A stretch of DNA of 37,920 nt from a phage. The notes beneath the pieces are model-generated. The model was not told where the DNA came from and ran no database searches. It saw only the letters and a list, made by a program, of their open reading frames with translations. Every line of letters begins with the position of its first letter. The first letter of the stretch is position 1. The translations under genes were made by a program, and so were the position numbers. The stretch lies in assembly GCA_033178465.1 (NCBI GenBank), contig GCA_033178465.1_4726.4; one strand, 5' to 3'. Of this stretch, positions 4-29,801 are shown in pieces.

Positions 4-25
4 GGCTCTCCAATGAAGGAGAGCC
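4..25 (-). terminator. Hairpin downstream of minus-strand gene 38-739
   Basis: Perfect inverted repeat GGCTCTCC / GGAGAGCC with 6-nt loop directly after the stop at 38; any U-tract would lie beyond the window edge. Confidence 0.3.
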
Positions 26-1706: not shown

Positions 1707-1774
1707 TGTCATCTCCCCTTCATACGCATCTTGAAGATCGGTTAAAAACAACAAAAGAAAAAACGATATAAAGC

Positions 1775-1800
1775 AAGGTCCTCTGATATCAGAGGACCTT
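1775..1800 (-). terminator. Intrinsic terminator candidate (perfect 12-bp inverted repeat)
   Basis: AAGGTCCTCTGA-TA-TCAGAGGACCTT; on the minus strand it is followed by a T-rich run (complement of 1741-1774); sits between gene 1808-2464 and gene 1179-1706. Confidence 0.45.
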
Positions 1801-1807
1801 GGATCAA

Positions 1808-2464: not shown

Positions 2465-2495
2465 GAATGAAATCTCGCTGGCTTACTTCACTTAA

Positions 2496-2512
2496 GTAAT
2501 ATAGCCGTGAAA
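2496..2512. promoter_or_regulatory. Conserved 17-mer GTAATATAGCCGTGAAA (copy 1), candidate phage promoter or operator
   Basis: Identical 17-mer recurs at 15029-15045; both copies lie in intergenic DNA upstream of a minus-strand operon start. Confidence 0.3.
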
Positions 2513-3436: not shown

Positions 3437-3442
3437 TTATCG

Positions 3443-3469
3443 AGCCTGTCCTTCGGGGCAGGCTTTTTA
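3443..3469 (+). terminator. Rho-independent terminator
   Basis: Stem AGCCTGTCC / GGGCAGGCT with UUCG tetraloop followed by TTTTT, directly after the stop at 3436. Confidence 0.75.
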
Positions 3470-3545
3470 TGCTGTTAAATATCAGGAATAAGAATTAACA
3501 AAATAGGAAAATGGTGTGAATATAACACAAAGGAGGGAGATGATT

Positions 3546-3771: not shown

Positions 3772-4080
3772 ATGAGCAATTTGAACGTTGAATTTACTTC
3801 AACAACGCCTGTCATGAATGGTGTTGGCACTGAAACCAAAATCGTATTAGAACCCATTCCGGGGTTACGCGATCTCGGTGATTTTTATCCACTGATGCCG
3901 CGTATACGGAAGGCCTTAAACAGTATCGATCTTGATTCCAATAAAGATTTCCAACACGATACAGAAAATACCGATCATGTATTGCTGCCATCAGGGATCG
4001 CAAAATTCACCTACACGCAAACATTGAAAGCCTCTGATGGTGAAATCCGTCGTTTTATCGTTGAAGTAGAAAGCGCATAA
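3772..4080 (+). CDS. Hypothetical protein (102 aa)
   Basis: ORF with ATG at 3772; weak AAAGG upstream; followed by a conserved hairpin. Confidence 0.55.
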   Translation: MSNLNVEFTSTTPVMNGVGTETKIVLEPIPGLRDLGDFYPLMPRIRKALNSIDLDSNKDFQHDTENTDHVLLPSGIAKFTYTQTLKASDGEIRRFIVEVESA

Positions 4081-4084
4081 AAAC

Positions 4085-4116
4085 CATCCTCCCAACCCGT
4101 AAGGGAAGGGAGGATG
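4085..4116. terminator. Conserved hairpin at convergent gene junction (loop AACCCGTAAGGGAA)
   Basis: Stem CATCCTCCC / GGGAGGATG (9 bp) enclosing a 14-nt loop with inner CCC-GUAA-GGG; an identical loop recurs at 28864-28877. Confidence 0.45.
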
Positions 4117-4133
4117 AAATATGCCGTTAAACG

Positions 4134-4763
4134 TTATTCAACAAACCCTGCATTCAACAGATTGTCGTAAACACGATTAGCGACATCAACAGGAGAATGT
4201 GTGTTACTGGTATCTATACGCAGCGTTTTCGCGTCGCCGAGATAGTCCATAAAATCCATGTAACGATAACGTCGTTTATTGAATGTCGCTTCATCGATGT
4301 TATCAAACATCTGATGTTTAGCGTGACGAACACGGAACCGTCTTAAATACGTAGGATAGTCGATATCCAGATAAACATAGTAAGACGGCATGATAATCGA
4401 CGGTAGGTTCGGCAACAATGCGTCAAACAACTTAACGTTAGCATCATTAACCTGATAAACATACGTCGAAGCAATCGAACGATCGCTAAGCACAGTCTTC
4501 CCTTCGTTAAGGGCTGGATGAATCACCTTGTTGAAGAGATGATTACGTTGCGACATCATCGCCAACAGCTCGGTTTCCGGATCGAATCTGTTTGTTGGTG
4601 TTTGGTCTTCCAGGATAAGTTTACGAATTGCTTCTCCGTAGAGCGTACCACCGGGTTCGCGTACAACACAGACATTGTTTAAACGGCTGTGTAAAGACGA
4701 GATAACCGAACTCTTTCCTGAATAATCCAAACCTTCAATAACGATATACTTATTACGAGACAT
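4134..4763 (-). CDS. tmk: Thymidylate kinase-like nucleotide kinase
   Basis: P-loop IVIEGLDYSGKSS, REPGGT motif and DRSIASTYVYQ motif in the order typical of thymidylate kinases; ATG at 4763 with GGAG 6 nt upstream (track ORF begins at a TTG at 4775). Confidence 0.7.
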   Translation of the reverse strand: MSRNKYIVIEGLDYSGKSSVISSLHSRLNNVCVVREPGGTLYGEAIRKLILEDQTPTNRFDPETELLAMMSQRNHLFNKVIHPALNEGKTVLSDRSIASTYVYQVNDANVKLFDALLPNLPSIIMPSYYVYLDIDYPTYLRRFRVRHAKHQMFDNIDEATFNKRRYRYMDFMDYLGDAKTLRIDTSNTHSPVDVANRVYDNLLNAGFVE

Positions 4764-11147: not shown

Positions 11148-11166
11148 AAAAGAAATGCTATACAAC

Positions 11167-11200
11167 CTCCTTCCCTAGCCGTCAAGGCCGGGGAAGGAGG
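11167..11200. terminator. Conserved GGAGG-rich hairpin at convergent junction
   Basis: Stem CCTCCTTCCC / GGGAAGGAGG (10 bp), loop TAGCCGTCAAGGCC; between stop 11147 (plus) and stop 11216 (minus). Confidence 0.45.
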
Positions 11201-14939: not shown

Positions 14940-15190
14940 TTAAAAAGATCCTCTGTTTCACGTTAATTAAACAACGTATTGATTTCTATTCGACAACAAT
15001 ACGAACATTGTCCGTATGCATCATAGAGGTAATATAGCCGTGAAAGGATTTGTGTTACAGAAAGGGTTTTGTTGTGTTTTAAGAAGGGATGGATTTAGAA
15101 GAGGTGTTTCAAGGAAGGTAAACGAGGATGGTTATTTTAATTTAAGTAAGTAAGATGTTATCTGTATTTGTTAAAAGTGTATTGTCCATG

Positions 15191-15254
15191 TTATCTTGTT
15201 TATCTTAGGTTTAATCGTTTTATCTTTGTATGTTTAAGTTGTTTTATTTATCTT
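15191..15254. repeat. Iteron-like TTATCTT heptamer repeats (4 copies)
   Basis: TTATCTT at 15191, 15200, 15220 and 15248. Confidence 0.4.
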
Positions 15255-15738
15255 GTTTGTATATTTAAATTAAATCAATAAGCGTATCTTCAAAACAATG
15301 GATAACATGTGTTTACTACCTTAATGGTAACACATGTCATCTGTGCATTACACTCCGTTATCACTTCGTTACATGCTTATATGTTGGATAACTCAAAAAA
15401 CCATTTGTGATACTCTTCTTCACGTTGTTCATCAGAGTATCTCGTCTATACTCATTGCATTCGTATACGACATAACCGTTATACGCTAACGCTACGCTTA
15501 TAGCTTGATAACTCTAAGGATAAAAACATAAACTCGCTTCGCTCGTTTAGTTTTTCTTTTTCTTAGAGTTATCCTGTTGCTCGTCTCTAAAGGACTTCGC
15601 TCCTCCCCCGTCCCCCGAAGGGGCCGAGGTCGTGGAAATTTTACTTTCCAAATACATTTACAACATCTGTAAACTTTTACTCCAGGTACTTAATCTTATC
15701 ATTAGAAATTATAAAGAGAAGAATAAACACAAACATAA

Positions 15739-15763
15739 ACCTTCCCCCGACCCAACAGGGAAG
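15739..15763 (-). terminator. Intrinsic terminator candidate after gene 15783-16676
   Basis: Stem CCTTCCC / GGGAAGG with 11-nt loop; on the minus strand it is followed by a T-rich tract (complement of 15721-15738). Confidence 0.45.
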
Positions 15764-15782
15764 GAGGAAGGGAGAGATTAAA

Positions 15783-16676
15783 TTATTCGGAAACGTTGTA
15801 ACCGAATACGGCTTTACCGTAGGTGTGGGTACCGTCAGCTAACGACACCACTAGCACATGGTTGTATGTGGCGTTAACACCCTTGTCGGTAGACTCGGTG
15901 GTAGCACCGTTATAGACAAAGGTAGCTGTTTGCAGATTGGCTTTCAGCTCGGTGATGATCTCCTCACTTACACCCGTCTGCTCTTTGATCAGCGTAGTCA
16001 GGTTACCTGCCAGGGTATCATCGATCTTGGTTTCATTACTGGTAATCGCCTGTAAGCCTACAGTGTAGGTGCTGAAGTCTAACGGATAGGTTAACAGACG
16101 TGCTGACGTTTTGGTACCATCGCCTTCATCAACGTAGGTTAAGTTACCCAGGTTGGTAACCTTGATGATGTTAGCCAGATCCAGCGTGGTGTTATAAACT
16201 TTAACTTGAACAGAACCATACCACGCCAACGAATCTTCTTTGGCTTCCAGGGTGATCGTCTGGATACCATGATCGTCGAAGGTAACAGGATTAGCTAACG
16301 TATCGGCTTTGATGTCTTTCGCTTTATCCAGGAACTTCTCACCGGAAGGCGTGATCATACCGTAGCGTTGAGCTACAAGGTCAACCACATCACCGATGGT
16401 GGTGTTCGCTTCAACGTTAACACGTACAGCGATCTTCTGGAACCACTTAGCCAGATCCAGACGATGGTAGGTAACATCGCGTTCATTGAAGTAAGGGGTA
16501 CCTTCACCAGGGCTAAGCGTTAAAGTTGCTTCTGGAGCAGAAGCGCTTTTGGATTTAAGAACGTATTTAAGATCACTGTATTGGAAGCTGGCACCAGTGT
16601 CGGCGTTGAGCTGGTTGATCTCATCAACGATAAGTTGCCAAGGTGTTTTTAAAGTAAGTGAAACTTGAGTTGCCAT
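15783..16676 (-). CDS. Paralog-family protein (297 aa), probable virion structural protein
   Basis: ATG 16676 with GAGGT upstream; shares the motifs TYHRLDL, LVAQRYGM and SLAWYGSVQV with the tandem paralogs at 28896-32515 and with the 180-aa protein; moderately optimised codon usage. Confidence 0.65.
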   Translation of the reverse strand: MATQVSLTLKTPWQLIVDEINQLNADTGASFQYSDLKYVLKSKSASAPEATLTLSPGEGTPYFNERDVTYHRLDLAKWFQKIAVRVNVEANTTIGDVVDLVAQRYGMITPSGEKFLDKAKDIKADTLANPVTFDDHGIQTITLEAKEDSLAWYGSVQVKVYNTTLDLANIIKVTNLGNLTYVDEGDGTKTSARLLTYPLDFSTYTVGLQAITSNETKIDDTLAGNLTTLIKEQTGVSEEIITELKANLQTATFVYNGATTESTDKGVNATYNHVLVVSLADGTHTYGKAVFGYNVSE

Positions 16677-16818: not shown

Positions 16819-17361
16819 ATGGCCTTAGACTTTAACAAAGCAGCGAAATCCCTTCTGCTTGATCTTATCAACACCAAAGCGACCCGCACGCTGACCGAAG
16901 AAGAACTGCAGTTCGGTACTCCGGCGGCATCTTCCGAACATTCTAAGAACACCGTTATTCAGCTGGATGCTGCAGTTGGTGCAGAAAACCTGCAGGGTAC
17001 TCAGCAGTTCTACTACGATCGTCTGGCTCTGTCCGACGTTTTCGCTGATGTAACTGGCGATGTTACTTTCGAACTGCCGCACGGTACCGACAGCATCCAG
17101 GCTTCTGAACTGGTAAGCAAGCTGGTCACCAAATTCGGCCTGGCTTCCCTGAACGGTGAAATCAAAGAAGAAACCTTCCAGCTGTCTGCAGGTACTGTTG
17201 CTCAGGTAACTCTGAACGCGATCGAGAATGGCATGGTATATACCGGCACTCTGCAGGTTGCTCTGACCTATGCAGCAGCACCGAAAGATGACCTGGCAAC
17301 CGTTCTGGCGGATAACGTAGCCGATGGCTTCGTGAAACCGACCGTTAGCGTTGTTGGCTAA
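16819..17361 (+). CDS. Highly expressed small paralog-family protein (180 aa), probable major virion component
   Basis: ATG 16819 with AGAGGA upstream; strong bias to CTG, CCG, GGT, AAC and TTC codons (the most host-optimised gene in the window); contains family motifs FYYDRLAL, LVTKFGL and MVYTGTLQV. Confidence 0.75.
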   Translation: MALDFNKAAKSLLLDLINTKATRTLTEEELQFGTPAASSEHSKNTVIQLDAAVGAENLQGTQQFYYDRLALSDVFADVTGDVTFELPHGTDSIQASELVSKLVTKFGLASLNGEIKEETFQLSAGTVAQVTLNAIENGMVYTGTLQVALTYAAAPKDDLATVLADNVADGFVKPTVSVVG

Positions 17362-17560
17362 TAAGCACATAGAGCAATAGTATGGGTTTTGTACAGCTCG
17401 GCTATTGCTCTTCTACAATTTGGTTGTAACAATCTGCGTGGTTGCACGCTTATCTTTCTCATTGAGCGCTTCGTATGAAGCGTGGTGTTGAAAGGGTTGT
17501 GGATCTCCTCAAGCGGCCAGGGACCCAGACCAACCTGAATAAACACGAACACCTATTAAG

Positions 17561-17592
17561 CCCCTCCTCATCCGTTATTGGGTGAGGAGGGG
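17561..17592. terminator. Conserved GGAGG-rich hairpin at convergent junction
   Basis: Perfect 10-bp stem CCCCTCCTCA / TGAGGAGGGG with 12-nt loop; between stop 17361 (plus) and stop 17656 (minus). Confidence 0.45.
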
Positions 17593-17655
17593 TCTTATAC
17601 GTCTTTATGCGTTCCGTTCGTTCTGGAGCGTTTTAGGACGGTTTACTGCAAGGTT

Positions 17656-18302: not shown

Positions 18303-19412
18303 ATGGAGTTACGTGTTTGTAAATGTTGCGGAGTGGAGAAATCTATTATTGAGTTCAAACCTACCACATCCGGGTATTACACAAGAACGTGTAAAAAGTG
18401 TTTGGTGGCATACAAGAAACAATGGAGGAAACTCAACCCAGATAAAGAACGTGCACAAATCAAACGTTATATGGAGAAATGTAAAAACAGAACAGGAGAT
18501 GTTAAGCTGGCTTACATCAGATCGTTGCAACCGGCGCTGCGTGTTAAGGCAAAAATAGACTACCCTGAAAATATTCTTCTCTTACATTGCTTTAAATGCG
18601 ATGGAGTTAAGCCGGTGGATAGTTTTGCTTTGGCTGCTGCTAGACCAACCGGTAGGTCGAATATTTGTCGAGCATGTTTGCAACAACACACCCACAACAG
18701 GAAATATCTCCCTACGGAACAGTTTTATCGGTGCCAACGTTGTGGTAAAACGAAACCAGCCGATCAATTTAGAGATCGATCCTCTGTGATTCGTGGAAAA
18801 CATTCTTACTGTTTAGATTGTGAAAAAGACGTTAAAGAAGAATTGTTGCGACGCAGAACTCCTGAATATCAGATTGAGAAACTAAAAGAGAAAAGTGTAT
18901 TGCTTGCGTGTAAACATGGACTGGATCCGGATAAGCTCTGGAAGAAATGCTCGAGTTGCGGCGAGATAAAACGACCATCCGATTTTTCTCGCAATTGCCG
19001 TGCAATAGATGGATACCAGTCTATTTGTAAACACTGTCGCTCGGCCAGTAGCGAAACATTCGCTGGATTCAGGAGACGTATCCATGCCGCCGTCGGTCAT
19101 GCGACGACCGTTGGTAAACTAACACGTCCTGATACATGCGAAGAGTGTGGCTGTAACGCATACACTGAGGCACACCATGACAACTATCTTAAACCTTTCG
19201 ATGTTCGCTGGTTATGCCGTAGCTGCCATCGTAAAGTCCATTTGAATTACGTATTTGTTGAAATACGTTATTTCAAGGAAAAAGGTTTAACGGTTGAAGA
19301 AGTTGTGCGTCGAGCTTACCCTGACGCTTTTGATTGGGTGGTGGTTAACCCGGAAGATAAGAATGCGCTAGTTATCGTCCGAGTACCACCACAGTTACGA
19401 GAGTTAGATTAA
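18303..19412 (+). CDS. HNH endonuclease with four N-terminal zinc-ribbon-like repeats (homing-endonuclease-like)
   Basis: C-terminal CEECG...HHDNY...WLCRSCHRKVH HNH motif; four repeats of C-x2-C-G-x2-K-x4-F...C-x2-C; visibly AT-richer than neighbours; opposite orientation to both flanking genes; start only 11 bp from the endolysin start. Confidence 0.7.
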   Translation: MELRVCKCCGVEKSIIEFKPTTSGYYTRTCKKCLVAYKKQWRKLNPDKERAQIKRYMEKCKNRTGDVKLAYIRSLQPALRVKAKIDYPENILLLHCFKCDGVKPVDSFALAAARPTGRSNICRACLQQHTHNRKYLPTEQFYRCQRCGKTKPADQFRDRSSVIRGKHSYCLDCEKDVKEELLRRRTPEYQIEKLKEKSVLLACKHGLDPDKLWKKCSSCGEIKRPSDFSRNCRAIDGYQSICKHCRSASSETFAGFRRRIHAAVGHATTVGKLTRPDTCEECGCNAYTEAHHDNYLKPFDVRWLCRSCHRKVHLNYVFVEIRYFKEKGLTVEEVVRRAYPDAFDWVVVNPEDKNALVIVRVPPQLRELD

Positions 19413-19420
19413 TGTCGAAT

Positions 19421-19444
19421 AAGAGGGAGTGGCAGCTCCCTCTT
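19421..19444 (+). terminator. Terminator candidate after the HNH gene
   Basis: Stem AAGAGGGAG / CTCCCTCTT (9 bp) with 6-nt loop, followed by a partly T-rich run. Confidence 0.4.
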
Positions 19445-19488
19445 TATGCCGTGTTGTTAAATACTGGATTTAGAGGAACAGGAAGGGT

Positions 19489-27459: not shown

Positions 27460-27491
27460 GATGCGCCCTTTACAAGTTGTTAGTAAGTATG

Positions 27492-27509
27492 GGATACCCT
27501 GGGGTATCC
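27492..27509. promoter_or_regulatory. Near-perfect palindrome GGATACCC-TG-GGGTATCC in divergent intergenic region
   Basis: 8-bp arms; related to the perfect palindrome at 12994-13013; lies between the divergent starts at 27459 and 27564. Confidence 0.35.
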
Positions 27510-27563
27510 TGTGTTAACAGCGGTAAAATATTACTGTAACTATAAAATAAGGGGGCCTCTCCC

Positions 27564-28844: not shown

Positions 28845-28854
28845 CCAAACATAA

Positions 28855-28886
28855 CCCTCCTCCAACCCGTAAGGGAAGGAGGAGGG
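28855..28886. terminator. Conserved hairpin at convergent gene junction (loop AACCCGTAAGGGAA)
   Basis: Stem CCCTCCTCC / GGAGGAGGG (9 bp); 14-nt loop identical to the one at 4094-4107. Confidence 0.45.
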
Positions 28887-28895
28887 AATATGCTG

Positions 28896-29801
28896 TTATG
28901 CTACATATAACGTTAGATAACCATCGATGAGCGTATTCATCACACTGAGTTGGAGTACGACAGCTTTACTAACATCCGTACGTACACCGAACGGTAGTGT
29001 TTTGAATTGCTCTGGATCGGCTATTACTTGCGCATTCTGCAAGTTGAGCGGTCCAGGCACTGCTGACAGTACCCAGCGATCGTTGACCATAAGGCCGTCG
29101 ATCTCTTCAGAGAGACCCAATTGCAGTGTGTTCATTTCTGCGATTAGTGCCTCCGATTGCGTATCGCCCGAGGTTAACGTATATCCATCGGTAAGTGATG
29201 CCAGAACACCAGCAGATACGAACCAGTTGTACGAAACAATAGCGCCTGGGAGTTTACTGCTATCTCGATCGATGATATAATTCAACCCAGCCAACATATT
29301 GTTGCGAACGAGGTTGTTGAGGTCGTTATGTCCTGAGGTTAACTCAACAAGTAACTGACCAACCCATACTTGGTTACCGGGTTTAGGTGTTATCACAACC
29401 TGTATCGGTGACTTGGACTTATCCAGATCCGCGTCGACAATCTCGGTTTTGTTGAGAAGGATACCGTACGTCGATGCTAAGACAGGTAATATCTCAGAGA
29501 CCTTGGTTAATGCATCTAAGGTTTCGATCTCGATGGGCCAGTGGTGCTGTCCGCCAGACCAAGTACCCAGTTTACCAAGATCGATGCGGTTATAATAGAT
29601 GTCGACAGAGTTCACCAGCCCTGAACCCGGTTGGGGATGCACGGTTAACTTGCTGTTACGCTTGTACCCTGTGCTTTCAGAAGCTTCACCGATAACCAGT
29701 TTATCCAGCGTTACGCCTCGAGCATCGAAATCGCTATGCTTTCGAATCAGCCGAAAGAGGATTTCTTTCGATTCTAACCCCAGGATTTCACTGTACTCCA
29801 T
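28896..29801 (-). CDS. Paralog-family protein (301 aa), probable structural
   Basis: ATG 29801 with AAGGGG upstream; family motifs YYNRIDLG, LASTYGILL and VWVGQLLV. Confidence 0.65.
   Translation of the reverse strand: MEYSEILGLESKEILFRLIRKHSDFDARGVTLDKLVIGEASESTGYKRNSKLTVHPQPGSGLVNSVDIYYNRIDLGKLGTWSGGQHHWPIEIETLDALTKVSEILPVLASTYGILLNKTEIVDADLDKSKSPIQVVITPKPGNQVWVGQLLVELTSGHNDLNNLVRNNMLAGLNYIIDRDSSKLPGAIVSYNWFVSAGVLASLTDGYTLTSGDTQSEALIAEMNTLQLGLSEEIDGLMVNDRWVLSAVPGPLNLQNAQVIADPEQFKTLPFGVRTDVSKAVVLQLSVMNTLIDGYLTLYVA

What the first reader, a model, noticed from the sequence alone, without database searches (positions are those of the whole stretch)
4085..4116. Family of GGAGG-rich hairpins at every convergent gene junction, two with an identical 14-nt loop
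Hairpins at 4085-4116 and 28855-28886 share the exact loop AACCCGTAAGGGAA, which can itself fold as CCC-GUAA-GGG with a GNRA-type tetraloop on the plus strand. Related hairpins occur at 11167-11200 and 17561-17592. All lie where plus and minus genes converge. They probably act as bidirectional terminators but lack canonical U-tracts on the plus strand, so they may also be RNA stability or processing elements.
Basis: seen in the sequence. Interest (0 to 1): 0.45.

Follow-up and report, generated by a model that had tools for sequence, protein, structure and literature searches.

The report
Jumbo-phage two-way transcription terminator hairpins
The hairpins are real and very probably are this nucleus-forming jumbo phage's version of a transcription stop signal already mapped in its relatives phiKZ and 201phi2-1 (a CCUCC/GGAGG hairpin followed by UAUG-YY-GU instead of a U-run), so the finding is largely ordinary.

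Summary
The window is about 96% identical to Escherichia phage Goslar, a 237-kb nucleus-forming jumbo phage (Chimalliviridae). All four hairpins exist as described, fold stably on both strands (-23 to -32 kcal/mol, z -5 to -8) and far exceed chance.

They belong to a genome-wide family. Goslar has 20 two-tier copies. They fill 13 of 17 convergent gaps against 6 of 209 co-directional junctions.

(T/A)TATG-YY-GT lies 1-3 nt after the stem on each transcribed strand, on both sides at convergent junctions. This matches the terminator motif mapped by ONT-cappable-seq in phiKZ (BCCYCCCCHWWDGGGRRGGBYTTATKYYGT). I found the same design directly in phiKZ and 201phi2-1 sequence.

The shared loop AACCCGTAAGGGAA is a lineage-specific apical mini-hairpin. 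Its GNRA reading is not functional: orthologous copies in close relatives carry the loop exactly reverse-complemented, and the tetraloop varies.

Verdict: two-way intrinsic terminators, a new member of a known kind. Three of the four are already annotated as putative terminators in the Goslar record.

The open question is whether the terminator's TATG is read by the same polymerase pocket that reads the TATG late promoter.

The parts
4085..4116 (.). Two-tier palindromic terminator hairpin 1: 9-bp CATCCTCCC/GGGAGGATG stem, AA/AA internal loop, CCC-GTAA-GGG cap. It lies between the + stop (4078-4080) and the - stop (4134-4136).
   Evidence: -23.5 kcal/mol on +, -25.8 on -. Model R1 scores 55 bits.
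4120..4127 (+). 3' terminator motif TATGCCGT for + strand transcripts, 3 nt after the stem.
   Evidence: It matches the phiKZ consensus TTATKYYGT and the Goslar/phiKZ position table.
4076..4084 (-). 3' flank for - strand transcripts: GUUUUUAUG. It combines a U-run with TTATG and overlaps the + ORF stop codon.
11166..11200 (.). Two-tier hairpin 3, the TA-GCC-GTCAA-GGC-CG variant. Its flanks are TATAG-type on both strands (ATTATAGTTTAT on +, TTGTATAGCAT on -).
   Evidence: -32.3/-30.3 kcal/mol; 19 bits. The orthologue in Goslar is annotated as a putative terminator.
15740..15771 (-). On the - strand it reads CCUUCCUCC-UU-CCC-UGUU-GGG-UC-GGGGGAAGG with one G.U pair (a C.A mismatch on +), followed by UUUAUGUUUGUG (15728-15739).
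   Evidence: -22.6 kcal/mol, z -4.6; 42 bits.
17561..17592 (.). Hairpin 4 with a near-continuous 13-bp stem, followed on + by CTTATACGTCTTTATGCG (17594-17611).
   Evidence: -31.5/-28.5 kcal/mol; 18 bits. The orthologue in Goslar is annotated as a putative terminator.
19421..19452 (+). Terminator of the inserted endonuclease gene. The hairpin AAGAGGGAG-TGGCAG-CTCCCTCTT has the purine arm first and is followed directly by TATGCCGT.
   Evidence: -16.6 kcal/mol, z -3.2.
28855..28886 (.). Two-tier hairpin 2: CCCTCCTCC/GGAGGAGGG stem with the same cap as hairpin 1. It is the commonest copy type in Goslar.
   Evidence: -26.8/-30.7 kcal/mol; 62 bits. Annotated as a putative terminator in Goslar.
28889..28896 (+). 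3' motif TATGCTGT for + strand transcripts.
28846..28854 (-). 3' motif for - strand transcripts: UUAUGUUUG, the reverse complement of CAAACATAA.
3442..3475 (+). One-way terminator with an ordinary GC stem (GAGCCTGTCC-TTCG-GGGCAGGCTT) and the same 3' motif TTTATGCTGT. It shows the 3' motif is shared beyond CCTCC stems.
   Evidence: Annotated in Goslar.
1764..1801 (-). One-way terminator CAAGGTCCTCTGAT/ATCAGAGGACCTTG followed by CTTTATATCG.
   Evidence: Annotated in Goslar.

Best explanation
Each element is a DNA palindrome. Transcribed from either side, it gives a very stable RNA hairpin with a C/U-rich 5' arm and a G/A-rich 3' arm, followed 1-3 nt later by (U/A)UAUG-YY-GU. This is the intrinsic terminator design of nucleus-forming jumbo phages (Chimalliviridae), which transcribe with their own split multisubunit RNA polymerases.

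Between convergent genes the palindrome carries the 3' motif on both sides (CATAA...hairpin...TTATG). It therefore stops polymerases arriving from both directions and prevents antisense read-through into the opposing gene. The hairpin stays at the RNA 3' end.

The 14-nt loop shared by two copies is a lineage-specific apical extension: an AA/AA internal loop plus a CCC-tetraloop-GGG cap. It lengthens the stem, and its orientation and tetraloop sequence vary freely between copies and between orthologues.

Shown here: structure, excess over chance, genome-wide distribution, strand-specific 3' motif, pairing-preserving changes, and the same design in phiKZ and 201phi2-1 DNA.
Taken from papers: RNA 3' ends map to this motif in phiKZ and 201phi2-1, and eight 201phi2-1 terminators work in a reporter assay.
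Inferred: the Goslar-lineage copies terminate, which polymerase they stop, and the exact release point.
For: - Identity of the genome: 95.7-96.1% identical to Goslar over 94-95% of the queries. The Goslar record annotates phiKZ-type RNA polymerase beta/beta' fragments.
- Stability on both strands and excess over shuffles.
- Every one of the 17 convergent gaps in Goslar holds a hairpin with a pyrimidine 5' arm. Two-tier copies fill 13 of 17 convergent gaps against 6 of 209 co-directional junctions, Fisher p = 1.3e-13.
- TATG lies within 10 nt 3' of such hairpins in 26 of 45 cases on the - strand and 14 of 45 on the + strand, against a 1.4-2.3% background. By my reading of the list, about 12 of the 14-15 + strand cases lie at convergent junctions (exceptions 63715 and 153135), whereas hairpins at -/- junctions carry TATG on the - strand only.
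- The downstream consensus (T/A)TATG-Y-Y-G-T and the 1-2 nt spacing are the same in Goslar (n=55) and in phiKZ 1-50 kb (n=19).
- phiKZ convergent junctions (25214, 34917, 43768, 12171) and the 201phi2-1 gp192/gp193 junction show the same two-sided arrangement.
- Published motif: BCCYCCCCHWWDGGGRRGGBYTTATKYYGT in 61 phiKZ terminators at mapped 3' ends, with 6 bidirectional regions between convergent genes (PMC10914365). 201phi2-1 motif A (n=59) resembles it, 15 sites are bidirectional and 8 terminators were validated in vivo (PMC11512511).
- Paralogues keep pairing through C-G to U-A double changes at 5 of 12 pairs, with 99% of cells paired.
- The one-way copy at 15740-15771 has a G.U pair only on the transcribed strand.
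- Three of the four are already annotated as putative terminators in MK327938.
Against: - No transcript 3' ends exist for this phage or for Goslar in what I could search.
- Hairpins 3 and 4 have TATAG / TTATACGT rather than TATG-YY-GT.
- The two-tier stem differs from the 7-bp, 4-nt-loop phiKZ consensus.
- The published in vivo validation used a host-polymerase reporter in Pseudomonas, not a phage polymerase.
- The supplementary tables with exact 3'-end positions were not held, so the release point relative to TATG is unknown.
Confidence: 0.85

Rival explanations
1. The hairpins are mainly RNA 3'-end stability or processing elements. Transcripts are cut, for example by RNase III or RNase E, or trimmed back to the hairpin. 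The hairpin does not itself release the polymerase.
For: The total helix (lower CAUA/UAUG pairs, a 9-10 bp stem and a 3-bp cap with a symmetric internal loop) approaches 18-20 bp and resembles phage RNase III sites in outline. The + strand has no U-run. ONT 3'-end mapping in relatives cannot by itself separate termination from processing.
Against: The conserved strand-specific 3' motif lies outside the helix and only on transcribed strands, as expected of a polymerase signal. Eight 201phi2-1 terminators of this class reduce downstream reporter expression in vivo. The phiKZ motif copies were classed as intrinsic terminators.
Confidence: 0.07
2. They are DNA-level elements: dispersed palindromic repeats (REP- or MITE-like) that spread or recombine. 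Their position at gene ends would only reflect where insertions are tolerated.
For: Copies of 50-55 nt are near-identical at different loci. Loops invert in place between close relatives, and one orthologous stem is replaced by the commonest copy type, which shows active DNA-level turnover.
Against: All copies sit within a few to about 20 nt of stop codons and fill every convergent gap. The 3' motif follows the transcription direction. Stems differ between copies through compensated changes rather than being one repeated sequence. The same design recurs with unrelated sequences in phiKZ and 201phi2-1.
Confidence: 0.04
3. They are translation signals. The GGAGG 3' arm is a Shine-Dalgarno sequence and the AUG of UAUG is a start codon. 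The CCUCC arm masks it, so the hairpin controls translation of a downstream (small) ORF.
For: GGAGG-N5-7-AUG spacing is ideal. In Goslar the hairpin-proximal ATG is the annotated start of Goslar_00111, 00183 and 00047, and an in-frame upstream ATG of 00234 and 00071.
Against: In 41 of 55 Goslar cases and in all 8 window cases the ORF from that ATG is under 40 codons, with a median near 10. At convergent junctions it runs antisense into the opposing gene. The phiKZ consensus allows T in place of the G.
Confidence: 0.04

Closest known systems
Conserved intrinsic terminator motif of phiKZ (Putzeys et al. 2024, microLife, PMC10914365) and motif A/B terminators of 201phi2-1 (PMC11512511)
   Same: C/T-rich 5' arm and G/A-rich 3' arm. 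(T/A)TATG-YY-GT lies 1-3 nt after the stem. They sit just 3' of stop codons. At convergent junctions the motif is on both sides. The genomes are transcribed by phage-encoded split multisubunit RNA polymerases.
   Different: phiKZ and 201phi2-1 stems are 7-8 bp with a 4-5 nt loop. The Goslar lineage has a 9-10 bp stem, an AA/AA (or TA/CG) internal loop and a CCC-tetraloop-GGG cap. In the window the first T of TTAT is often A (ATATG). No 3'-end mapping exists for this lineage.
Terminator hairpins of the enterobacterial jumbo phages Klebsiella phage Miami and Serratia phage Totoro
   Same: CCTCC...GGAGG arms with a CCC-GTAA-GGG or CC-CGTTAA-GG apex. The Miami copy lies between convergent genes and is annotated as a terminator. 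The Totoro copy is followed by GATATGTCAG.
   Different: The stem is continuous (TA/TA pairs where Goslar has AA/AA), so there is no internal loop. Only one copy of each was examined.
Canonical bacterial bidirectional intrinsic terminators (GC hairpin flanked by an A-tract and a U-tract)
   Same: One palindrome between convergent genes serves both strands. Several Goslar copies have an A-run upstream on +, which is a U-run on -.
   Different: There is no U-run directly after the stem on +, and the consensus scan did not call them. A specific TATG-containing motif is present instead, and the polymerase is not the host enzyme.
phiKZ late promoter TATG (Yakunina et al. 2015, PMC4666361; structure PMC12809450)
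   Same: The same four bases, TATG, lie on the non-template strand.
   Different: In promoters the G is the transcription start and no hairpin is described upstream. Here TATG follows a hairpin at gene ends. Any mechanistic link is my inference.

Membership tests
Chimalliviridae (phiKZ-type) conserved intrinsic terminator | Hairpin with a C/T-rich 5' arm and a G/A-rich 3' arm (CCYCCCC...GGGRRGG) | tested here: met
   All four reported hairpins and the copy at 15740-15771. The exception is 19421-19444, which has the reverse polarity.
Chimalliviridae (phiKZ-type) conserved intrinsic terminator | 3' flank BYTTATKYYGT starting 1-3 nt after the stem on the transcribed strand | tested here: met
   Present at 4120 TATGCCGT, 28889 TATGCTGT, 19445 TATGCCGT, 3468 TATGCTGT, and on the - strand as TTATGCGC, TTATGTTTGG and TTTATGTTTG. 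The position table is the same in Goslar and phiKZ. Hairpins 3 and 4 match only loosely (TATAG, TTATACGT).
Chimalliviridae (phiKZ-type) conserved intrinsic terminator | Short stem (about 7 bp) closed by a 4-nt loop (HWWD) | tested here: not met
   The window copies have a 9-10 bp stem plus internal loop plus 3-bp cap. Simple phiKZ-like copies do exist elsewhere in Goslar, such as 117670 and 140971. I treat this as a lineage variant of the stem, not as exclusion from the class.
Chimalliviridae (phiKZ-type) conserved intrinsic terminator | Location just 3' of stop codons, with bidirectional copies between convergent genes | tested here: met
Chimalliviridae (phiKZ-type) conserved intrinsic terminator | The genome encodes phiKZ-type virion and non-virion multisubunit RNA polymerases | tested here: met
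   The window is 96% identical to Goslar. The Goslar record annotates several RNA polymerase beta/beta' fragments, and Goslar is called Chimalliviridae. The polymerase genes lie outside the window.
Chimalliviridae (phiKZ-type) conserved intrinsic terminator | RNA 3' ends accumulate at the motif during infection | not testable with these tools
   No transcriptome of Goslar-like phages was found. The supplementary tables for phiKZ and 201phi2-1 were not held.
Canonical bacterial intrinsic (Rho-independent) terminator | Run of U directly after a GC-rich stem | tested here: not met
   Not met on the + strand of any of the four, and none was called by the consensus scan. It is partly met on the - strand of hairpin 1 (GUUUUUAUG).
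GNRA-tetraloop structured RNA motif | A conserved GNRA loop on a defined strand | tested here: not met
   Paralogues have AACA, AGCA, GTCA, ATCA and GATGA. Orthologues vary among GTGA, GTCA and GTAA, and the loop is reverse-complemented in place at four loci. No Rfam family matches.
REP/MITE-like dispersed palindromic repeats | Copies distributed independently of transcription-unit ends, sharing one repeat sequence | tested here: not met
   Copies are tied to stop codons and to all convergent gaps. Stems differ through compensated changes.

The most novel reading that the evidence does not exclude
The TATG that follows every terminator hairpin may be the same 4-bp element as the chimallivirus late promoter. 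In phiKZ, non-template-strand TATG is bound by a pocket in the beta-like core subunit gp123, with G as +1.

That pocket is part of the core enzyme, so an elongating polymerase would re-bind TATG exactly when the RNA 3' end reaches the G, 6-7 nt after the stem. This would create a sequence-specific pause that replaces the U-tract and lets the hairpin release the RNA. The same site could also serve for re-initiation.

This would be a promoter-element-dependent termination mechanism with no bacterial counterpart except sigma-dependent pausing.
Probability: 0.2. Interest if true: 0.6.

Novelty: new member of a known kind. Interest (0 to 1): 0.25.

Why it matters
For annotation, it gives a simple rule for finding transcription-unit ends in Goslar-like and other nucleus-forming jumbo phages: a CCYCC/GGRGG hairpin followed by TATG-YY-GT on the transcribed strand. 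Standard terminator finders miss these because there is no U-run. The Goslar record lacks the copy at 4149-4180.

For engineering, the two-tier palindromes are candidate compact two-way insulators.

For mechanism, the same 3' motif occurs in E. coli, Klebsiella, Serratia and Pseudomonas chimalliviruses, and it is identical to the late-promoter core. This makes one question directly testable: how do these sigma-less, split RNA polymerases terminate?

The frequent in-place loop inversions are a clean natural example of hairpin-mediated micro-inversion. They also warn against reading function into loop sequences.

Tried and rejected
- GNRA tetraloop or loop-specific recognition: rejected because of tetraloop variants and exact in-place loop inversions in orthologues.
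- Restriction to convergent junctions: rejected. There is a one-way copy at 15740-15771, and six two-tier copies lie at -/- junctions in Goslar.
- Known RNA family: Rfam at gathering thresholds found nothing in the window or in two unrelated contigs carrying the 18-mer. There are no tRNAs in the window.
- Small ORFs starting at the hairpin-proximal AUG: mostly under 40 codons and not conserved in length.
- The lower CATAA/TTATG pairing as a mere stem extension: RNAfold does pair it. However, the sequence is conserved rather than covarying, and one-way copies have it only on the 3' side, so I read it as the 3' signal.
- Exact 3'-end positions in phiKZ and 201phi2-1: the supplementary tables are not held.
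- Literature linking terminator TTATG to promoter TATG: none found.
- TATG promoters in Goslar: only a mild excess of TATG in 20 divergent regions (17 against about 9.5 expected, often 36-76 nt before + genes). This is suggestive only.
- The consensus sigma-70 promoter and terminator scans were uninformative for this phage.

Full report
**What the window is.** The window is 95.7-96.1% identical, over 94-95% of the queried stretches, to Escherichia phage vB_EcoM_Goslar (MK327938, 237,307 bp). Goslar is a member of the nucleus-forming Chimalliviridae. Its record annotates several fragments of phiKZ-type RNA polymerase beta/beta' subunits. Window position 1 corresponds to Goslar position 64. Two further Goslar-like genomes exist in IMG/VR (IMGVR_UViG_3300011560_000001 and IMGVR_UViG_3300045988_173921). 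They are 93-96% identical to the window, so the window is a fourth member of this lineage.

**Checking the observation.**
- The 14-mer AACCCGTAAGGGAA occurs only at 4094 and 28864.
- As RNA, each folds on both strands at -23.5 to -32.3 kcal/mol with z-scores of -5.2 to -8.1.
- Perfect hairpins with a pyrimidine-rich 5' arm number 5 in the window, 4 of them with arms of 9 nt or more. Dinucleotide shuffles give 0.33 and 0.02.
- All four lie between the stop codons of converging ORFs.
- A fifth convergent junction (19412/19571) has a hairpin of opposite polarity, AAGAGGGAG...CTCCCTCTT at 19421-19444.
- A fifth true family member at 15740-15771 lies behind a - strand gene at a co-directional junction.

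**The family genome-wide.** I assembled the Goslar genome and folded all of its convergent junctions.
- All 17 junctions that have an intergenic gap carry a hairpin whose 5' arm is C/T-rich and whose 3' arm is G/A-rich.
- Twenty copies share a two-tier architecture: a 9-10 bp stem, an AA/AA (or TA/CG) internal loop, CCC (or GCC), a 4-6 nt loop, GGG, and the 3' arm.
- Eight of them carry the exact 14-mer, all on the + strand.
- Two-tier copies occupy 13 of 17 convergent gaps but only 6 of 209 co-directional junctions, Fisher p = 1.3e-13.
- A covariance model built from 11 Goslar copies finds the window copies at 62, 55, 42, 19 and 18 bits.
- Across paralogues 99% of cells are paired, and 5 of 12 pairs change on both sides. 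The change is always C-G to U-A, so the pyrimidine/purine polarity is kept.

- TATG lies within 10 nt after hairpins with a pyrimidine 5' arm far more often than the 1.4-2.3% background: 26 of 45 on the - strand and 14 of 45 on the + strand.
- By my reading of the list, about 12 of the 14-15 + strand cases lie at convergent junctions (the exceptions are 63715 and 153135). Hairpins at -/- junctions carry the motif on the - strand only.
- In the window the + strand has TATGCCGT at 4120, TATGCTGT at 28889, TATGCCGT at 19445 and TATGCTGT at 3468, each right after a strong hairpin.
- The - strand has GUUUUUAUGCGC after hairpin 1, UUAUGUUUGG after hairpin 2 and UUUAUGUUUG after the 15740 copy.
- Hairpins with ordinary GC stems (3442-3465, 1774-1801) carry the same flank, so the 3' motif is the common denominator of this phage's terminators.

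**Comparison with what is known.**
- Putzeys et al. 2024 mapped transcript 3' ends in phiKZ by ONT-cappable-seq. They found 61 intrinsic terminators sharing 5'-BCCYCCCCHWWDGGGRRGGBYTTATKYYGT-3', plus six bidirectional terminator regions between convergent genes (PMC10914365).
- The 201phi2-1 study found a closely similar motif in 59 terminators and 15 bidirectional sites. It showed that eight terminators work in a reporter assay in P. chlororaphis (PMC11512511).
- I tested the resemblance directly. In phiKZ 1-50 kb and 201phi2-1 100-130 kb the same hairpins occur. At convergent junctions (phiKZ 12171, 25214, 34917, 43768; 201phi2-1 125157) TATG is present on both sides.
- Aligned on TATG, Goslar (n=55) and phiKZ (n=19) give the same consensus, (T/A)TATG-Y-Y-G-T, and the same modal spacing of 1-2 nt from the stem.
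- Klebsiella phage Miami and Serratia phage Totoro have CCTCC...GGAGG hairpins with a CCC-GTAA-GGG-type apex but a continuous stem.
- The Goslar record already labels the orthologues of three of the four hairpins as putative transcriptional terminators. The copy at 4149-4180 is not annotated.

**The shared loop.**
Paralogues carry GTAA, GTGA, AACA, AGCA, GATGA, GTCA and ATCA.
- In orthologous positions of the two IMG/VR relatives, the whole 14-nt loop is exactly reverse-complemented while stems and flanks stay the same. This occurs at Goslar 4149, 48106 and 174267 in one relative and at 63715 in the other, which is 4 of 21 comparisons.
- At Goslar 93445 the orthologous stem and loop are replaced by the commonest copy type.
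- Loop orientation and sequence are therefore not under strand-specific constraint. The apical mini-hairpin acts as a stem extension. These palindromes also undergo frequent micro-inversion and copy conversion at the DNA level.
- One thing is unexplained. Within Goslar itself the orientation is biased (about 17:3). I cannot separate shared ancestry from selection.

**Mechanism.**
- Best explanation: these are intrinsic terminators for the phage's own RNA polymerases, and they work in both directions where genes converge. The hairpin remains at the RNA 3' end.
- The one-way copy at 15740-15771 has a G.U pair on the transcribed strand that would be a C.A mismatch on the other strand. This fits action at the RNA level.
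- A speculative extension follows from two facts about phiKZ. Its late promoter is TATG with G as +1 (PMC4666361). Non-template-strand TATG is bound by a pocket of the beta-like core subunit gp123 (PMC12809450).
- In the terminator the G lies 6-7 nt after the stem, where release is expected. An elongating enzyme could therefore re-bind TATG and pause there.
- This is inference only. I found no paper proposing it. Evidence that Goslar uses TATG promoters is weak: 17 TATG against about 9.5 expected in 20 divergent regions.

**Rivals.**
- A pure processing or stability role is not excluded. It fits poorly with a conserved, strand-specific motif outside the helix and with the reporter data in 201phi2-1.
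- A purely DNA-level repeat is contradicted by the tie to stop codons and by the compensated stem changes.
- A translation signal (the GGAGG arm as ribosome-binding site plus AUG) fits a few Goslar junctions where that ATG is the annotated start. It does not fit the majority, where the ORF is a few codons long.

**Verdict.** The elements are the Goslar-lineage form of a terminator class already described in related jumbo phages. They are a new member of a known kind, of modest interest. One open and testable mechanistic question remains: whether the terminator TATG and the promoter TATG are read by the same pocket.

Noticed in passing
window 18303-19412 (+), with 19421-19452: A 369-aa ORF is absent from Goslar; it sits between the orthologues of Goslar_00024 and Goslar_00025. 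It matches PHROG endonuclease, endonuclease VII and HNH families plus a Lar-like segment, and the Pfam Stc1 zinc-finger domain. It looks like a free-standing homing-endonuclease insertion. It creates the fifth convergent junction and brings its own terminator of reversed stem polarity.
   Followed up: partly
Goslar 4149, 48106, 63715, 174267 and 93445 against loci L009, L020, L025, L018, L011: Between genomes about 95% identical, the 14-nt hairpin loop is exactly reverse-complemented in place at four loci. At a fifth locus the stem and loop are swapped for another copy type. This indicates hairpin-mediated micro-inversion and copy conversion.
   Followed up: yes
window 14940-15737: About 800 nt has no ORF longer than 51 aa and a GC content down to 29%, with short TTATCTT-like direct repeats and several inverted repeats. 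The same stretch is gene-free in Goslar (14971-15826). Its function is unknown; it could be regulatory or replication-related.
   Followed up: partly
window 2495-2512 and 15028-15045: A conserved 18-mer, (A/G)GTAATATAGCCGTGAAA, occurs twice against 0.04 expected. Each copy lies upstream, in the - direction, of a block of - strand genes. Similar copies occur in at least three Goslar divergent regions. Its reverse complement contains TATATTAC, which I recall (from memory, not checked) as resembling the phiKZ early promoter, so it is a candidate early promoter.
   Followed up: partly
Goslar 117666, 166924, 49772, 225525, 84361 (loci L004, L005, L002, L006, L003): At these one-way terminators the ATG of the TTATG motif is the annotated start codon of the next gene, or an in-frame upstream ATG. 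The GGAGG 3' arm then doubles as its ribosome-binding site.
   Followed up: partly
window about 27488-27510, about 16761 and about 2543: TATGG lies 55-76 nt upstream of + strand genes in divergent regions, so these are possible TATG-type late promoters. At 27491-27510 it is followed by the palindrome GGGATACCC-TG-GGGTATCC.
   Followed up: partly
Two other contigs carry the 18-mer inside a larger predicted structure (-59 kcal/mol over 137 nt) with no Rfam match.
   Followed up: no
window 17362-17560: A 200-nt spacer separates the + gene stop from hairpin 4. It contains further hairpins, including GCGTGGTTGCACGC followed by TTATCTTTCT at 17436-17449, which may be the actual + strand terminator. 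The ORF 17358..17552 (-) is probably spurious.
   Followed up: no
L002 1-28 and L006 37244-37280 (Goslar record ends): The Goslar record begins inside a second copy of the hairpin-plus-poly(A) segment that ends it. This is a short terminal duplication in the deposited sequence.
   Followed up: no
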